A stretch of 5,858 nucleotides of DNA from a virus (lineage: Duplodnaviria; Heunggongvirae; Uroviricota; Caudoviricetes). The position numbers and the translations under genes are program-made. The stretch lies in the IMG/VR virus record IMGVR_UViG_3300028992_000037. The stretch is one strand, 5' to 3'. The first letter of the stretch is position 1, and each line of letters begins with the position of its first letter. The notes beneath the pieces are model-generated. The model was not told the DNA's origin. It was given only the letters and a program-made list of their open reading frames with translations, and did not search any database. This document shows positions 88 to 5,858 of the stretch, in pieces.

Positions 88-729
88 TCAGCGACCAATC
101 ACCACAACCTGACCACCATCACCTTCATCTGCTGTGCTGATCTCCTGAGATACCACCCGCGACCCCACACGCATTTCACCGTACAGAACGGGCAGGACAT
201 TGCCCTGGGCAACCATATTATCCAGTGAAGAAAAATAGGTGTTCTGTTTGCCGTTATCCGTTGTCTGTGTGCGGGGGGTTTTGGGTTTAGGGGCCAGCAT
301 CTGTGCAACACCGCCAAGCGTCATACTGGCACCGAGAGAAAACAGCAGATTACTCGCCATAATTCCTACCCCCGGCATCCATATAGCAACCGCCATAACA
401 GCCGCCCCCAGCACAGCCTGAAACACACCGCCACTTTTGGCTCCCGCCAGACGCGGCACGATATGGATCACAGCACCATTTGCCAGCGGTTCATTAAGAC
501 GGGCTGATAATTCCGTTTCACCTGTATCACGCCCGGCAATGCGTACCTGATACCAGCCGTCGCTCAGCTTCTGACGAAACGCCGGGATCTGCATGGCCAG
601 CGCCCGGATGGCTTCGGCCCCCGTTTTCACACGCAGATCGATGCGGCGGCCAAATCGTTGTAAATCCCCGTAAAGGCAGATGCGCGCCATGCCCGGTGAC
701 GCCAGAGGGAGTGTGTGCGTCGCTGCCAT
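88..729 (-). CDS. I: Tail assembly protein I (lambda gpI-like)
   Basis: 213-aa ORF starting MAATHTLPLASPGMARICLYGDLQRFGRRIDLRVKTG, which matches the lambda gpI N-terminus as I recall it. It overlaps the 3' end of K by 103 nt in another frame, the same overlap I recall for lambda K/I. It sits between K and J, has high GC, and includes a hydrophobic glycine/alanine-rich central segment. Confidence 0.9.
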   Translation of the reverse strand: MAATHTLPLASPGMARICLYGDLQRFGRRIDLRVKTGAEAIRALAMQIPAFRQKLSDGWYQVRIAGRDTGETELSARLNEPLANGAVIHIVPRLAGAKSGGVFQAVLGAAVMAVAIWMPGVGIMASNLLFSLGASMTLGGVAQMLAPKPKTPRTQTTDNGKQNTYFSSLDNMVAQGNVLPVLYGEMRVGSRVVSQEISTADEGDGGQVVVIGR

Positions 730-1370
730 TTGTCGGTATACCTCTCTCGTTTGCTCAGTTGTTCAGGAATATGGTGCAGCAGCTCGCCGTCACCACAGTA
801 AATGGCGGCATGATTCGGCACCGATGAACCAAAGCAGCACAGCAGCACATCGCCCGGTTGTGCTGATGACAACGGCACCTGATACAGCCCTGTGGCCTCC
901 AGATTATCCAGATAGAGATTCTGACCGTGACGCCACCAGTCATCCCCGCGATGAAAATCCGGCATCTCAATTCCCGCCAGATGGTAAGCGTCCCGGAACA
1001 GCGTGTAACAGTCCGTCACCCCGTGCTCAAAGCGCCGCCCGGTGAGATGCGGCACACAGCGGAATTTATGAATCGCCCCCCGGCAGACCAGCCACCACGG
1101 CAAATCACTCTGCACCTGCAGCCGCCGGTCGGCCTCACTCAGCCAGGGCAGACCACCGGGGTGGCTGTGGACCAGCGCCACAATCTCTCCCTGCATTTCT
1201 GCACTCAGCCAGTCCTCCGGCGACATCCGGAAATACGCCTCCGGCTCACCGGAGATATTCACGCAGGGAAAATATCTTTCCTCCTCCGGCGTTCTCACCA
1301 CGAAGCCGCACGACTCCGCTGGCGCACATCGCCGGGCGTGCGCCAGAATCGCTGATTCTGTCTCTGTCAT
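627..1370 (-). CDS. K: Tail tip assembly protein K (lambda gpK-like; N-terminal MPN/JAMM-type domain plus C-terminal NlpC/P60-type domain)
   Basis: 247-aa ORF beginning 5 nt after the L stop. It contains an exact JAMM motif, HSHPGGLPWLSEAD (H-x-H-x7-S-x2-D, aa 68-81), with an upstream Glu at aa 19. The C-terminal half has a Cys/His arrangement typical of NlpC/P60 (DCYTLF ... NHAAIY ... LLHHI). An alternative internal start at Met49 (1224..1226) is preceded by GGAGG and would correspond to the classical 199-aa lambda K. Confidence 0.88.
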   Translation of the reverse strand: MTETESAILAHARRCAPAESCGFVVRTPEEERYFPCVNISGEPEAYFRMSPEDWLSAEMQGEIVALVHSHPGGLPWLSEADRRLQVQSDLPWWLVCRGAIHKFRCVPHLTGRRFEHGVTDCYTLFRDAYHLAGIEMPDFHRGDDWWRHGQNLYLDNLEATGLYQVPLSSAQPGDVLLCCFGSSVPNHAAIYCGDGELLHHIPEQLSKRERYTDKWQRRTHSLWRHRAWRASAFTGIYNDLAAASICV

Positions 1371-1375
1371 GGGAT

Positions 1376-2074
1376 TTACTGCGAAAGTTTGTTAATGGAA
1401 AGGAAGCTGCCAAAGTTGCCGACATTATTGCGAAACTTACAGCCACTCAGGCATTTGCTGCATTTATCCTTCGTGATATCGGACGTCGGCTGGTCATATT
1501 CATCCGCGACCGCCGGACCGCTATAACCGCACTCATCGCCGCGATAGGTCCAGGTGCAGGTGTTGGCCAGCATGATACGTCCCGGAAAAACAGCGCCATC
1601 CGTTTCCGTCGGCGTGGACAGTACAAAAGAGGCACTGACCGCGCTCAGTTCGCTGCACTGCTCGATGCGCCAGCGGCTGATCACCTCCTGCTCCGGATCG
1701 GCTTCGCTGTTTCCGTTGACGAAGTTCACCGCATCCAGAAAGCGGGCGTAAACCTTACGCCGGACCACCGTTCCGCCGACCAGACTCTGCAGATCTTCCG
1801 CCATCCCGGTGATCATGCCGTGCAGGTTAGAGACCGTCAGTGTCGGACGGGCAGCACTGCCCTTGCCGTTCATCTCAAATCCACTCCCCTGAATGGGATA
1901 GGCCTGATACTGCCGACTCTGCCAGGTGACAGACTCACCTTTTTCGTTCTGCTCATTACAGAAAAAGTAGCGATCCCCGCCTACCTCGGTCAGGTCGATT
2001 TCCCAGAGCACCACGCTGGCCGACTGCTCCGCACGAATGCATTCATTCAGCGTTTCCTGTTGTATGTCCTGCAT
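1376..2074 (-). CDS. L: Minor tail protein L (lambda gpL-like, tail tip complex; cysteine cluster consistent with an Fe-S site)
   Basis: 232-aa ORF starting [12 protein letters not shown]...SASVVLWEIDLTEVGG, closely matching lambda gpL as I recall it, and the same length as lambda L (699 nt). Its ATG overlaps the M stop as ATGA (2072..2076). There is a C-terminal cysteine cluster (C173, C182, C205, C208, C212). Confidence 0.92.
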   Translation of the reverse strand: MQDIQQETLNECIRAEQSASVVLWEIDLTEVGGDRYFFCNEQNEKGESVTWQSRQYQAYPIQGSGFEMNGKGSAARPTLTVSNLHGMITGMAEDLQSLVGGTVVRRKVYARFLDAVNFVNGNSEADPEQEVISRWRIEQCSELSAVSASFVLSTPTETDGAVFPGRIMLANTCTWTYRGDECGYSGPAVADEYDQPTSDITKDKCSKCLSGCKFRNNVGNFGSFLSINKLSQ

Positions 2075-2412
2075 CAGATCACCACTTCGTCAAACTGACA
2101 CGAAAAATCGGTATAGGTGATATGTTCTGTCGCTGACCACGTTCGACACACCACTCTGATTTTTCTGTTAATACCCGGCGGGCGCCAAAAAAAAGATTTA
2201 TAGCCTTCATGCCGGGCTAAAAATTTTTCAAATGAATCACGTTCATTCGCCTCAACTTTGAAATCACAGGTGAAAACGCGCAGAGAATGATTAAGTCCAT
2301 TTGGACTTCGTTGCTCATAACCATCGCCAAATCTTACAGTTTTTATCGATGGTTTATTTTCTGTTTTCATTCCATCCTCTGGTAACCAGTGAAATTCTTC
2401 CGTATTAGCCAC
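2074..2412 (-). CDS. M: Minor tail protein M (gpM family, divergent from lambda gpM)
   Basis: 112-aa ORF with a GTG start that overlaps the H stop by 8 nt. The N-terminus ([28 protein letters not shown]) aligns with the lambda gpM N-terminal region (F-R-W...GM...VRFGDGY) as I recall it, and the C-terminus ends ...FDEVVI versus lambda ...FEQVVN. An alternative ATG start at 2368..2370 is preceded by GAGGA. GC content is markedly lower than in L, K and I. Confidence 0.8.
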
Positions 2413-5400
2413 TTAACATTCCCCCATCACGTCGCATATTTAACAGATTGCCCTGCACCCGCTGATCAACCATCCCCATAAGTGCTTTTATTGCCTGAGG
2501 GCCAATCTCTCCATTCTGGCCGTCATTTTGAATAGTGATTTGGTATACAGGGGCATAGGTAATATCTCCGCCTCCATTACCACTTTTACTATTAATAGCT
2601 CTGACACCAAGAGAACCATCGGAAGTTCGTGTTAATGGCATAATGGCTTCCGGACCAGCTTCACCAAAAACACCAGCCCCTCTTGCAAAAGCAAAAAATT
2701 GCGGGGAATCATAAATACCGTTCGAATACGTGTTCAATGACGGAGACTCATAAACACCGCCCTTTGCATTCGGAATAAATTTACTAATAGCACTCCCGAT
2801 AGTTCCTAAAATCCCCCCAGAAGAACTGTTACTAATGCTGTCGAAAATCCCAGTAATTGAAGCCTTTAATGCTATTCGACTAAGATCCGAAATCACGGAA
2901 GTAGCGAAAGAACGAAAATTTGCCTTGCCTGTCGTGACAAAATCACCCAACGCATCGGTCATTCCATCAAACATCTGAGTCGTGGTTGATTTTATCTGCT
3001 CACTGATATCCTTAGTGTCATCCAGCCAGTTATTGAATCCCTGGGAGGCACCACTAACCCAGTCTCCTGCCTGAATATCGAGCTGCTCGTTTTTCTGTCT
3101 GACAATTTCTTTTTCTCGTTCCAGAGCATCATTCAGAGCCTGCATTTTCTCCTGAAAAACATGATTTGACATCCCACGGGATTTATCTGCATAGTCACGT
3201 TCAAGTTGCAGACGCTGATTGTTATATTCACGTTCAATCCGCAGTAATTCCTGCTGGCGTTGCTGATTTTTATCGCCAACCCCATAACCAGCAATCTGAA
3301 TATCATACCCCTGTTGACGATTATCAATCGAAGCCTGCAATGAATCACGCCATGCAGCTATTTCGGCGGATTCCTTGATTAGCCTGTTATTTTTTTCAAT
3401 CGCAACATTTTTCTCCATCAACGCGGTTATTTCTTCCCGGTGTAAGAGAAGCGATTTCTGATCCTGGGTTAATTTCGATGACGGTCGTGACTCCAGGTCG
3501 GCAATCTGCTGACGCCACTTAACCAGTTCCTGTTCAGAGGAACTTAATTTAACGGTTAATTCAGTTTGTGAACTTAGTAACGCATTCTGTTGATTCAGAT
3601 GATCAATCATTCGTTGGGCAGCATCATCCGAATAACCTTTCGCCTTTGGTTGCTTTGGATCTTTATAACGCTCATTTATTTGAGCGATAAAATTATTATA
3701 TTCTTCCTTTGAATACTGACTCTTTAGCTTTTCCAGTTTTGCAAGTTCACTAGCTCTCTGCTGCTCCCGGGTCTGATATTGTTTTGAAAAGGCATCTGCT
3801 CTCTGTCTGAGTTCAATTCCTTCCTGTTGTCGCTTGTTGTAATCGTTTATTGATGAATTTAGGACGTCCTGAGCAATTTTTTCTGCTTGAAGTACGCCCA
3901 ATTGCTGCTTTAATCGTGCCAGCCTTTTATTTTGAGCTCCGCCATCTCCAATGCCACCTAACCCGAAAACTCCGGGTCGGGTATTTTTTTCTATTTCATC
4001 AATTTGACGGAGAACATCTGAGATTTTTTGATCAAGGGAGGCCTCACGGCCAATATCCAGCATGGAATCCCATGCCCATTTTGCGGAGTCTGCGACAGCT
4101 TTCCATGCAGTCTCAAGATAACCAAGATTTTCTTTAATCTGGTTGGTGCGCTGGATCATTGAGGATGAGTATGCTTCTGTCGCAATGCGGGCGGCCTCCT
4201 GCTGGTTCCCTTCATCCTGTAGCGCCTTAATCTGGTTATAAGTCGCAATTGTCAGAAAATGGTACTGATCATTAAGTTTTGATATGGCACTGACAGGATC
4301 CTTTGCAATTTCATTGAAGTCATTAACCAGTTGTTCGGTTGATATTCCTGTTACTTCGCTCGTTTTTACTATCGCTGTCGTCACTTGCTCCAGCGAACTG
4401 CTCGCTACCTTTCCCGAACGCACAAGCTGGTTTAATACTGCCGCCGCAGCGCCAGTTGTCGAATCAGCCGCATTCCCGGCACGTTGAGCTATATCGGCCA
4501 ATTGCCCGCTGGTTGTCCCCAACTGATTTCCGGTAAGAATAAGAGATTTATTAAATTCGTCCTGCTCCTGAGAGCCTTTATAGTAAGCCAGCCCTAAGAC
4601 GCCAACGGCTGCTGCGGCCAGGGTAAAAGGATTAATTAATCCCAGCACATAAGAACCAACACCTTTGATCGCCGGGCCAATCCCACCGAACATATCTTTT
4701 AGCTGGCCGCCCTGCTGCATTAACACCATAAAAGGCGACTGACCAGTGGACAACCCAACAACAATATCCGTCATTTGTGCAGGCAACATGCGCATAGCAA
4801 AAGCCGTTTGTTTTGCCGACATTCCGGTTTTGCTTAATTGAGATTGAGTAACCTCAAGCTCACTCCGCATAGCACGAAGTTTTCCAGAAAGTTCCTCATA
4901 CATTTCAGGAGAGAGCATCCCCTTAGCTTTTGCTTCATTGAGCTGTTTCTGTTGTTCTACCAGACGATTAAAAGCAGTTCCGACAGGGTCAAGTTGAGCA
5001 ATCAGACGTTGCAAAGCAGCAACCTGTTCATCATGCGCTTTTGCTGCTTCTCGCTCTGCCTGAGCCTCTCCGGTAAGCTCTCGCCGTGTTTCCTGTATTT
5101 TTCGGCTATAATTCTCAAACTGAGAACCATTTATTTTCCCGGATGCAAACGCAGCATTAAGTTCATCCTGCTGTTGTTCAAGATTTCTTAGCGCCGCAAC
5201 CAGAGGGTCGATCTTGTCCAGCATTCTTTGAAAGGCCTGAGCCTGCGATTCCTGCTGGGCGGCAGCAAGTTTTCCGGCCTTCTCGGCTTCTCTCTGCGCT
5301 TGCGCAACCCCGCTCAATTCCTCTGTGGTTTCATTAAGTTTACGGACAAGAAATTCATATTCTTCTTTATCAATAAGTCCTTTATCGAAAAATTTCTTTA

Positions 5401-5638
5401 ATTCAGAATAGCGTCGACCGACAGTATCAATTGCGGCACCAACTGGATCAATAGCTGCTTTTAATTTTGCGAGCGCGTTCTTCTCATCTTCTGTTGCCTT
5501 AGTCACTTTCCCTGCGCTATTTGCAGCAGTTTCCCCGGCCTGCGTCATTTTGACTAATGAGGAGGTCAGATTGTCAGCATTATTTTTTGCTCCAGTGCTA
5601 TCAATAATTATTGCGAGACGCGAGGTTTGCTCTGCCAT
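2405..5638 (-). CDS. H: Tail tape measure protein (lambda gpH family, extended to 1077 aa)
   Basis: Single 3234-nt ORF with a GGAG Shine-Dalgarno at 5648..5651, 9 nt before the ATG. It has three N-terminal repeats of about 48 aa (aa 63-110, 143-190, 216-263). A conserved hydrophobic block ([38 protein letters not shown]...[15 protein letters not shown], aa ~283-354) matches the corresponding lambda gpH segment as I recall it. A long central region is Q/E/K/R-rich and coiled-coil-like. The C-terminus (...[16 protein letters not shown]...[10 protein letters not shown]) resembles the lambda gpH C-terminus as I recall it. It sits immediately upstream of M-L-K-I-J. Confidence 0.92.
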
Positions 5639-5798
5639 TTATTAAAACTCCAGACAACAAAAAGCCCACCGAAGTGGGTTTCAGGCGACATAATAGTAGA
5701 TATAGCGATTACGAGGCCACGCAATGCTTTTCTCCAGGAGCATCATCGATTTAATTAAAGACACCTGAAGTGGTTTACTGAATTTGGCCACCTGAACA

Positions 5799-5817
5799 GA
5801 GGTGATATGCTCACCTC
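5799..5817. promoter_or_regulatory. 7-bp perfect inverted repeat (GAGGTGA / TCACCTC) with a 5-nt spacer; candidate operator or protein-binding site upstream of a plus-strand gene start
   Basis: Seen directly: GAGGTGA at 5799..5805 and TCACCTC at 5811..5817 are reverse complements. Further CACCTG/CAGGTG copies lie nearby (5762..5767, 5789..5794, 5827..5832). The repeat is 20 nt upstream of the ATG at 5838. Confidence 0.3.
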
Positions 5818-5837
5818 AGAACAACACAGGTGCCATA

Positions 5838-5858
5838 ATGAAAAAAAGAAATTTCAGC
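5838..5858 (+). CDS. Possible 5' end of a plus-strand gene of unknown function (MKKRNFS..., continues beyond the window end), divergent from the tail operon
   Basis: ATG AAA AAA AGA AAT TTC AGC runs to the window end with no stop. An AGGTG Shine-Dalgarno-like motif lies 5 nt upstream (5828..5832). The Lys/Arg-rich N-terminus is typical of a signal peptide or membrane-protein start. Only 7 codons are visible, so this is tentative. Confidence 0.25.

What the first reader, a model, noticed from the sequence alone, without database searches (positions are those of the whole stretch)
4850..5452. Triplicated ~48-aa repeat in the N-terminal domain of an unusually long tape measure protein
Three consecutive repeat units in H align with conserved positions (aa 63-110, 143-190, 216-263: [IL]DP at positions 1-3, A7, L18, G25, E33, K38, E45-L46), separated by Ala/Gln/Glu-rich linkers. 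The whole protein is 1077 aa versus 853 aa for lambda gpH as I recall it. Because tail length scales with tape measure length, this predicts a tail roughly a quarter longer than lambda's. The repeats are diverged at DNA level, so they are old duplications rather than a recent one.
Basis: partly seen in the sequence, partly recalled or inferred. Interest (0 to 1): 0.45.

Follow-up and report, generated by a model that had tools for sequence, protein, structure and literature searches.

The report
Three old repeats lengthen a tape-measure protein
The tail-length ruler protein of a common E. coli Rac-type prophage really does carry three ancient tandem copies of a ~73-residue helical module, which explain why it is longer than lambda's, but this is an ordinary, widespread way for such proteins to vary in length.

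Summary
Gene H (2405-5638, minus strand, 1077 aa) contains exactly three tandem repeats. The true unit is about 73 aa (aa 51-123, 131-203, 204-276), not 48 aa plus linkers, because the "linkers" also align. Pairwise z-scores are 12-18 against shuffles. A left-out unit scores 36-47 bits, against at most 9 for shuffles. Protein identity is 31-37% and DNA identity 45-50%, so the duplications are old.

Lambda gpH (853 aa) aligns 57-850 to 270-1077 here, so essentially all the extra length is this N-terminal array, which ends where Pfam TMP_2 begins. Relatives carry 0-5 units. Four-unit proteins duplicated U2, and two-unit proteins lack it. Across 74 full-length family members, total length tracks N-terminal length (slope 1.04), while the rest of the protein stays near 825 aa.

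The protein is not unusually long or rare. This N-terminal region occurs in 1071 of 5426 complete E. coli genomes, and K-12's Rac pseudogene ynaA is a truncated copy.

A tail about 34 nm longer than lambda's is a reasonable inference but is untested. This particular copy also has an IS3-family element 128 bp upstream of H. Verdict: real, a new member of a known kind, modest interest.

The parts
2405..5638 (-). Gene H: tail tape measure protein, 1077 aa
   Evidence: ORF. Pfam TMP_2, TMP_4 and Tape_meas_lam_C above cut-off. TIGR01541 218 bits. Collinear with lambda gpH, E = 3.6e-79.
5489..5638 (-). N-terminal head, aa 1-50, before the repeat array
   Evidence: Conserved among relatives with 1-4 units. 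Not significantly similar to lambda gpH 1-56.
5270..5488 (-). Repeat unit U1, aa 51-123
   Evidence: Sub-threshold SHOCT match at aa 79-101 (21 bits against a cut-off of 27).
5249..5269 (-). Seven-residue (one heptad) spacer between U1 and U2, aa 124-130
   Evidence: U1 to U2 spacing is 80 aa, against 73 aa for U2 to U3.
5030..5248 (-). Repeat unit U2, aa 131-203. This is the unit that is duplicated or missing in relatives.
4811..5029 (-). Repeat unit U3, aa 204-276, abutting TMP_2
4226..4840 (-). Pfam TMP_2 domain, aa 267-471. It contains the hydrophobic segment aa 329-353 that corresponds to lambda gpH 116-140.
   Evidence: PMC12617516.
3395..3628 (-). Pfam TMP_4 domain, aa 671-748
2843..3067 (-). 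Pfam Tape_meas_lam_C, aa 858-932
2074..2412 (-). Gene M-like distal tail protein; its start overlaps the end of H
   Evidence: annotation of matching phage and E. coli records.
88..2074 (-). Genes L (1376-2074), K (627-1370) and I (88-729): tail-tip assembly genes
5766..5858 (+). Left end of an IS3-family element (ISEc52-like), inserted 128 bp upstream of the H start codon
   Evidence: Phage and prophage homology stops at 5765. Bases 5762-5858 are 100% identical to many IS3-like ISEc52 copies.

Best explanation
The N-terminal quarter of this tape measure protein is an array of three anciently duplicated modules of about 73 residues. The array sits between a 50-residue head and the conserved TMP_2 domain.

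Each module is alpha-helical with a heptad (coiled-coil) hydrophobic pattern. It has two conserved helix-capping motifs: I-D-P, and G-hydrophobic-hydrophobic-D/S/N followed by an aromatic residue.

The array works as expandable ruler length. Unequal recombination or slippage between units adds or removes whole modules without disturbing the essential domains. That changes the length of the protein, and by inference the length of the tail tube built around it, by about 11 nm per unit.

Shown here: the duplication, the helical and heptad character, copy-number variation among relatives, and that N-terminal length drives total length across the family. Inferred: that the extra residues translate into a longer tail, about 34 nm or roughly 8 tube rings more than lambda.
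For: - Repeat significance and exact count.
- The unit ends where TMP_2 starts in almost all relatives: 123/124, 217/218, 276/277, 349/350.
- Relatives with the same head have 1, 2, 3 or 4 units.
- Three-unit Klebsiella orthologues are positionally orthologous: U1 73-82%, U2 71-78%, U3 61-64%. The triplication therefore predates their divergence.
- Four-unit proteins have two U2-like units that are 53-62% identical to each other. Two-unit proteins are U1+U3.
- Among 74 full-length TMP_2-type proteins, total length against N-terminal length has slope 1.04 and r = 0.86. The body stays near 825 aa whatever the N-terminal length (r = 0.06).
- Lambda has no N-terminal unit and is shorter by just this array.
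- Hydrophobic positions in 206 aligned units show a sharp 3.5-residue periodicity, and the single spacer is exactly 7 residues.
- AlphaFold2 predicts an all-helical array with breaks at the conserved Gly.
- The only curated-model similarity for the array is weak and of SMC/Rad50 coiled-coil type.
- Published deletions in TP901-1 give (118-65) nm per 347 aa, or 0.15 nm per residue, and treat repeats as natural facilitators of length change (PMC5099701).
- The C-terminus of lambda gpH sits at the tail tip, so the N-terminal array lies towards the head (PMC12617516).
Against: - No tail-length measurement exists for any phage with this protein.
- The AlphaFold2 model has low confidence (pLDDT 54) and is a monomer. 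It cannot tell an extended parallel coiled coil from folded-back hairpins at the conserved Gly and Asp-Pro breaks. Hairpins would add less length per unit.
- Copy-number differences are old. Even the duplicated U2 pair is only 53-62% identical, so turnover is slow rather than an active 'dial'.
- The 74-protein regression used proteins selected for having at least one unit, plus lambda.
- This copy has an IS element upstream and may be non-functional.
Confidence: 0.72

Rival explanations
1. The units fold back at the conserved Gly and Asp-Pro breaks into helical hairpins or a bundle. They would then form a discrete head-proximal domain rather than extended ruler. Possible roles are oligomerisation (SHOCT-like), docking of the terminator or chaperone, or part of the trans-envelope DNA conduit. 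Such a domain would add little or only part of the expected tail length.
For: - Two conserved helix-capping motifs per unit, and predicted helix breaks at aa 86-90, 166-170 and 239-243.
- Sub-threshold SHOCT similarity of U1, and SHOCT-type hits in distant multi-unit tape measure proteins.
- The N-terminal third of lambda gpH* has been modelled as part of a hexameric periplasmic channel (PMC12617516).
Against: - One hydrophobic series (columns 9, 16, 23, 30, 37, 44, 51, 58) keeps 7-residue spacing straight through the Gly break.
- Lambda lacks the array yet assembles and infects, so the array is not needed for chaperone docking or channel formation.
- SHOCT is below Pfam's cut-off for U1 and absent for U2 and U3.
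- There is no compensation of body length for N-terminal length, which is what additive ruler length would produce.
Confidence: 0.2
2. The similarity is only generic coiled-coil or low-complexity (Ala/Gln/Glu-rich heptad) resemblance, not true duplication.
For: The region is 59-64% Ala+Gln+Glu in the inter-core segments. It also gives weak hits to the coiled coils of SMC and Rad50.
Against: - Composition-preserving shuffles never approach the observed scores.
- The other coiled-coil parts of the same protein score 1.7 bits or less against leave-one-out profiles, while the omitted unit scores 36-47 bits.
- The non-heptad motifs (D-P, G-x-I, aromatic) sit at fixed positions and are 96-100% conserved in 206 units.
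Confidence: 0.02
3. The units are repeated binding sites for the G/GT-type tail assembly chaperone (YdaY family) that coats the tape measure protein.
For: - A YdaY gene with an in-phase A_AAA_AAG slippery site and a -1 extension lies just upstream of H in intact relatives.
- A chaperone-repeat interaction has been speculated for lactococcal phages (PMC5099701).
Against: - No direct evidence.
- Unit number varies from 0 to 5 in phages that all have such chaperones.
- In TP901-1 a repeat could be replaced by alanines without effect.
Confidence: 0.06

Closest known systems
Lambda gpH (tail length tape measure protein, 853 aa)
   Same: The domain order is the same from TMP_2 onwards: TMP_2 with a hydrophobic segment, a coiled-coil middle, TMP_4, Tape_meas_lam_C and a Gly-rich C-terminal region. 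The two proteins are 28% identical over about 800 aa. Genes M, L, K and I follow downstream in both.
   Different: Lambda has only about 56-63 residues before TMP_2 and no detectable N-terminal unit. This protein has 276 residues there, including three units. Only a weak partial match to the unit core occurs mid-protein in lambda, at aa 410-441.
E. coli K-12 Rac prophage pseudogene ynaA and the intact Rac-type prophage tape measure proteins
   Same: The N-terminal region is 98.6% identical in DNA. ynaA is a C-terminally truncated copy that carries the same three units. Intact 1077-aa copies exist in many strains, for example Z247.
   Different: None of substance. The window is one more copy, here with an IS3-family element upstream.
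11/18-residue aromatic tandem repeats of tape measure proteins in Gram-positive and mycobacterial phages (Belcaid 2011, PMC3271669; Mahony 2016, PMC5099701)
   Same: Both are internal tandem units in a tape measure protein. Their number varies between relatives, and they offer a way to change ruler length by duplication and loss.
   Different: Here the unit is about 73 aa rather than 11 or 18. It is heptad-based, with Asp-Pro and Gly capping motifs rather than Trp/Phe markers. There are few copies (0-5). It lies N-terminal, directly before TMP_2, and is much more diverged.
SHOCT domain (Pfam PF09851) and SHOCT-like DUF1707
   Same: The core of the unit (L-x-x-L/F-x-x-x-G-x-I-x-x-x-E/Q-Y/F-x-x-x-x-x-x-L) resembles the SHOCT helix-Gly-helix motif. 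Distant multi-unit tape measure proteins reach higher SHOCT scores.
   Different: The match is below Pfam's gathering score for U1 (21.2 against 27) and absent for U2 and U3. The unit is also much longer than the 28-residue SHOCT model.

Membership tests
Lambda-type tail tape measure protein (TMP_2 / TIGR01541 family) | Pfam TMP_2 (PF06791) above the gathering score | tested here: met
   274 bits against a cut-off of 30.2, aa 267-471.
Lambda-type tail tape measure protein (TMP_2 / TIGR01541 family) | Lambda-type C-terminal region (PF09718 Tape_meas_lam_C; TIGR01541) | tested here: met
   91.4 bits against 23; TIGR01541 217.6 bits against 104.75.
Lambda-type tail tape measure protein (TMP_2 / TIGR01541 family) | Collinear full-length similarity to lambda gpH | tested here: met
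   aa 270-1077 against lambda 57-850, 28% identity, E = 3.6e-79.
Lambda-type tail tape measure protein (TMP_2 / TIGR01541 family) | Gene position between the G/GT chaperone and the M-L-K-I-J tail-tip genes | tested here: met
   M, L, K and I follow in the window. YdaY with a -1 frameshift site precedes H in intact relatives. In this window an IS end interrupts the upstream side.
Lambda-type tail tape measure protein (TMP_2 / TIGR01541 family) | Protein length determines tail length | not testable with these tools
   Needs electron microscopy of virions and in-frame deletion mutants.
11/18-residue aromatic tape-measure repeats (Belcaid 2011; Mahony 2016) | Period of 11 or 18 residues marked by Trp/Phe at fixed positions, in many copies | tested here: not met
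   The period is 73-80 aa, with three copies. Conserved positions are D-P, G and heptad Leu/Ile.
SHOCT domain (PF09851) | Score at or above Pfam's gathering threshold (27 bits) | tested here: not met
   U1 scores 21.2 bits (E = 2.4e-4). U2 and U3 give no hit. The whole protein scores 16.9 bits.
Coiled-coil (heptad) segment | Hydrophobic residues with 3.5-residue periodicity in a predicted helix | tested here: met
   The periodicity peak at 3.5 residues is 8.6, against 1.0-3.4 at other periods, over 73 columns of 206 units. The AlphaFold2 model is all-helical but of low confidence.
Variable-copy length cassette of TMP_2-type tape measure proteins (proposed here) | Same unit present in different copy numbers in otherwise collinear relatives, adding to total length | tested here: met
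   There are 0-5 units. The unit abuts TMP_2. Total length against N-terminal length has slope 1.04, and body length is constant.

The most novel reading that the evidence does not exclude
The ~73-residue helix-cap-helix coiled-coil module is a family-wide, so far unnamed 'length cassette'. It is the main source of tape-measure length variation in TMP_2-type siphophages (Rac-type, HK639, T1-like, Casadabanvirus), setting tail length in steps of about 11 nm. It may also lengthen the gpH*-type conduit that spans the periplasm. No Pfam or NCBIfam model covers the array.
Probability: 0.3. Interest if true: 0.5.

Novelty: new member of a known kind. Interest (0 to 1): 0.3.

Why it matters
Tape measure proteins set tail length, and internal repeats are already a known route to length change. 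This case adds a concrete, well-delimited module for the lambda/T1/Rac group.

The module sits at a fixed place, directly before TMP_2, and occurs in 0-5 copies. It accounts for most of the length variation in this family (r = 0.86 across the 74 proteins).

That gives a simple experiment: delete or duplicate U2 and measure tails. It also gives a handle for engineering tail length, and a candidate for a domain model that would improve annotation. It does not change how tail-length determination is understood.

Tried and rejected
- Tandem Repeats Finder found no DNA-level array in H. One repeat finder failed on strand syntax and was not repeated.
- A BLASTP self-comparison returned only the diagonal, so I used segment alignments with shuffles instead.
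- AlphaFold2 of aa 1-330 with 17 homologues gave pLDDT 54. I used it for secondary structure only, and ran no fold search because low-confidence models give meaningless matches.
- The sequence search of solved structures gave nothing meaningful for aa 1-276; the best hit was isocitrate lyase at E = 0.05.
- The N-terminal head is not detectably similar to lambda gpH 1-56: score 21 against a null mean of 20.9. I therefore make no claim of an insertion into a lambda-like N-terminus.
- P0012, a 'four-unit' hit, turned out to be a complete 505-aa gene in a rearranged prophage that lacks M, L, K and I. It serves only as evidence for the U2 duplication, not as an intact ruler.
- P0128 (22 matched stretches) is a GA-like-domain protein and not a tape measure protein, so distant profile hits include helical false positives.
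- The only paper mentioning the near-identical vB_EcoS records concerns phages located in genome sequences of clinical isolates, and I found no tail measurement for them. No paper links tape measure proteins with SHOCT in this sense.
Full report
**What is in the window.** All long ORFs lie on the minus strand. They form a lambda-type tail module: H (2405-5638, 1077 aa), M (2074-2412), L (1376-2074), K (627-1370) and I (88-729). H carries Pfam TMP_2 (aa 267-471, 274 bits), TMP_4 (aa 671-748) and Tape_meas_lam_C (aa 858-932). It also matches TIGR01541 at 218 bits. Near-identical DNA occurs in Salmonella phage SPF_0923 and in a series of E. coli prophage records named vB_EcoS-.... The finding's coordinates, 4850-5452, are aa 63-263 of H.

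**Checking the observation.**
- The similarity extends well beyond 48 aa. It starts about 12 residues before each Asp-Pro and runs through the supposed linkers ([10 protein letters not shown] against [10 protein letters not shown]).
- The true units are therefore aa 51-123, 131-203 and 204-276. They are contiguous except for a 7-residue insertion at aa 124-130.
- Local alignment scores are 85-119, against shuffle means of 26-28. That gives z = 11.8-18.4, and 0 of 2000 shuffles reach the observed score.
- In leave-one-out profiles the omitted unit scores 36-47 bits. The best of 2000 shuffles scores at most 9.1 bits, and the best other region of H scores 1.7 bits or less, even though the body of H is rich in coiled coil. 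This rules out mere compositional or heptad resemblance.
- A profile of the units finds exactly three copies in H.
- Units are 31-37% identical in protein and 45-50% in DNA, and Tandem Repeats Finder sees nothing there.

**Where the extra length sits.** Lambda gpH is 853 aa. It aligns as 57-850 to aa 270-1077 of this protein, at 28% identity and E = 3.6e-79. The bodies are therefore the same size, about 800 aa. Of the 224-aa excess, 213 aa lie before TMP_2, which is the three-unit array. Lambda has no N-terminal unit. It gives only a weak partial match to the unit core at aa 410-441.

**Anatomy of the unit.**
- I aligned 206 non-identical units from TMP_2-containing proteins.
- Some columns are nearly invariant: D14-P15 (96% and 100%), L30 (96%), G37 (96%), then I/L39, F/Y44, Y/L47, L/I51 and L58.
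- Large hydrophobic residues recur every 3.5 residues. The spectral peak is 8.6 at period 3.5, against 1.0-3.4 at other periods.
- One hydrophobic series (columns 9, 16, 23, 30, 37, 44, 51, 58) keeps 7-residue spacing through the whole unit. The only spacer between units is exactly one heptad.
- I-D-P and G-x-I-(D/S/N) look like helix N- and C-capping motifs; this is my reading of the sequence.
- AlphaFold2 on aa 1-330 gave low confidence (pLDDT 54). It predicts an all-helical array with breaks at aa 86-90, 166-170 and 239-243, which are the Gly motifs.
- Pfam gives only a sub-threshold SHOCT hit on U1: 21.2 bits against a cut-off of 27, with none on U2 or U3.
- NCBIfam gives only weak coiled-coil-type similarity to SMC and Rad50. 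No solved structure matches.
- No curated domain model therefore covers the array.

**Relatives.**
- A search with aa 1-319 found proteins with the same 50-aa head but 1, 2, 3 or 4 units.
- A profile of the three units, run against 1.84 billion representative proteins, found 448 proteins at E <= 1e-3 and 72 at E <= 1e-10.
- Most of the listed top hits (best 150) that I examined are proteins of 850-1280 aa with 1-5 units that end exactly where TMP_2 starts: 123/124, 217/218, 276/277, 349/350.
- Distant hits include other tape-measure architectures (PhageMin_Tail plus TMP_3) with many SHOCT-like repeats. At least one is a false positive, a GA-like-domain protein.
- Three-unit Klebsiella-type orthologues match unit for unit: U1 73-82%, U2 71-78%, U3 61-64%. 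The triplication therefore predates their divergence.
- Four-unit proteins (for example P0096, 1195 aa) carry two U2-like units that are 53-62% identical to each other. Two-unit proteins are U1+U3 without U2. Single-unit proteins (for example P0131, 946 aa) show no clear orthology. U2 is thus the unit that has been gained and lost.
- Among 74 full-length TMP_2-type proteins, total length regresses on N-terminal length with slope 1.04 (r = 0.86). The length from TMP_2 to the C-terminus stays near 825 aa and is uncorrelated with N-terminal length (r = 0.06, p = 0.6). The caveat is that the set was chosen for having at least one unit, plus lambda.
- Among cultured phages, HK639 has two units. T1-like JMPW2, Webervirus KP36 and Casadabanvirus JBD5 each have one detectable unit. 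Lambda has none.

**Is the protein unusual?** No. The N-terminal 939 bases match 1071 of 5426 complete E. coli genomes at 90% identity or more. Matches include K-12 strains, where the match is ynaA. ynaA is the C-terminally truncated tape-measure pseudogene of the Rac prophage, next to ydaY, lomR and stfR. An intact prophage in strain Z247 has the same 3234-base gene, within a P22-type capsid and lambda-type tail-tip module. A length of 1077 aa is mid-range for the family.

**How it most likely works.**
- Shown: ancient tandem duplication of a heptad-patterned helical module; its fixed place before TMP_2; copy-number variation; and additive contribution to protein length.
- From the literature: tape-measure length sets tail length. 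In TP901-1, a 347-aa deletion shortened tails from 118 to 65 nm, or 0.15 nm per residue. The same authors regard repeats as natural facilitators of duplication and deletion (PMC5099701). Units of 11 aa are known in other phages (PMC3271669). Tandem repeats are reported in about half of tape measure proteins (PMC13585406).
- The C-terminus of lambda gpH binds gpI at the tail tip, so the N-terminal array lies towards the head (PMC12617516).
- Inferred: each 73-aa unit adds about 11 nm. The 226-aa array adds about 34 nm, roughly a quarter more than lambda. The lambda tube length of about 135 nm and 32 rings is from my own knowledge.
- The main uncertainty is whether the units lie extended or fold back at the capping motifs. 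A monomer model of low confidence cannot decide this.
- The same Ur-lambda study models the N-terminal third of gpH* as part of a hexameric periplasmic conduit. A role of the array after ejection therefore cannot be excluded.

**Other things seen.**
- Homology to prophages stops at base 5765. Bases 5766-5858 are the left end of an IS3-family (ISEc52-like) element, with its orfA start at 5838. The element sits 128 bp upstream of H, so this copy is separated from the upstream late genes.
- In intact relatives, ydaY ends with an in-phase A_AAA_AAG and has a -1 ORF of about 105 aa. This is the conserved G/GT-type chaperone frameshift, and it is not annotated.
- There is a mosaic joint near the L/M border. 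I-K-L are 91-97% identical to phages such as mEp460, mEp332 and PhiR49_1 and are 56-60% G+C. M and H are 43-47% G+C and are shared only with Rac-type records.

**Verdict.** It is a new member of a known kind, namely internal repeats that vary tape-measure length. Its modest added value is that it defines a 0-5-copy N-terminal cassette for TMP_2-type proteins.

Noticed in passing
window 5766-5858 (+): Left end of an IS3-family (ISEc52-like) insertion sequence, with its orfA ATG at 5838. It lies 128 bp upstream of the H start codon. Prophage homology stops at 5765, so this prophage copy is probably cut off from its upstream late genes.
   Followed up: yes
L003 9940-10770 (intact relative, E. coli Z247); the equivalent region lies beyond the window end and the IS: ydaY, upstream of H, ends with an in-phase A_AAA_AAG slippery heptamer and a -1 ORF of about 105 aa. 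Together they give a 222-aa fusion. This is an unannotated G/GT-type tail-chaperone frameshift.
   Followed up: partly
window about 2026-2412 (L/M border): Mosaic joint. Genes I, K and L (56-60% G+C) are 91-97% identical to many lambdoid phages (mEp460, mEp332, PhiR49_1). M and H (43-47% G+C) are shared only with Rac-type prophage records.
   Followed up: partly
window 3668-3760 (H aa 627-657) and lambda gpH aa 410-441 (L001): Weak, sub-significant matches of the unit core (L..L...G/S.I...Y motif) in the middle of both proteins. They may be a degenerate relic or just a recurring SHOCT-like helix motif.
   Followed up: no
L004 8001-11877: In a metagenomic prophage, a four-unit relative of H is a complete 505-aa gene followed directly by a GpJ-like gene, with no M, L, K or I. 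This looks like a rearranged or degraded tail module, and it was seen on 8 contigs.
   Followed up: no
phage records ON470581, ON470585, ON470587, ON470595, ON470602: In several near-identical records the tape-measure gene is annotated as two or three CDSs, and the match comes in 2-3 pieces. This suggests frameshifts, indels or assembly problems in those copies.
   Followed up: no
window 4823-4834 (H aa 269-272, KTGM), the start of TMP_2: TMP_2 begins with a G-M-S motif ([18 protein letters not shown]; lambda has [18 protein letters not shown]). It resembles the Gly capping motif inside each unit, which hints that the units arose by duplicating the segment just before TMP_2.
   Followed up: no
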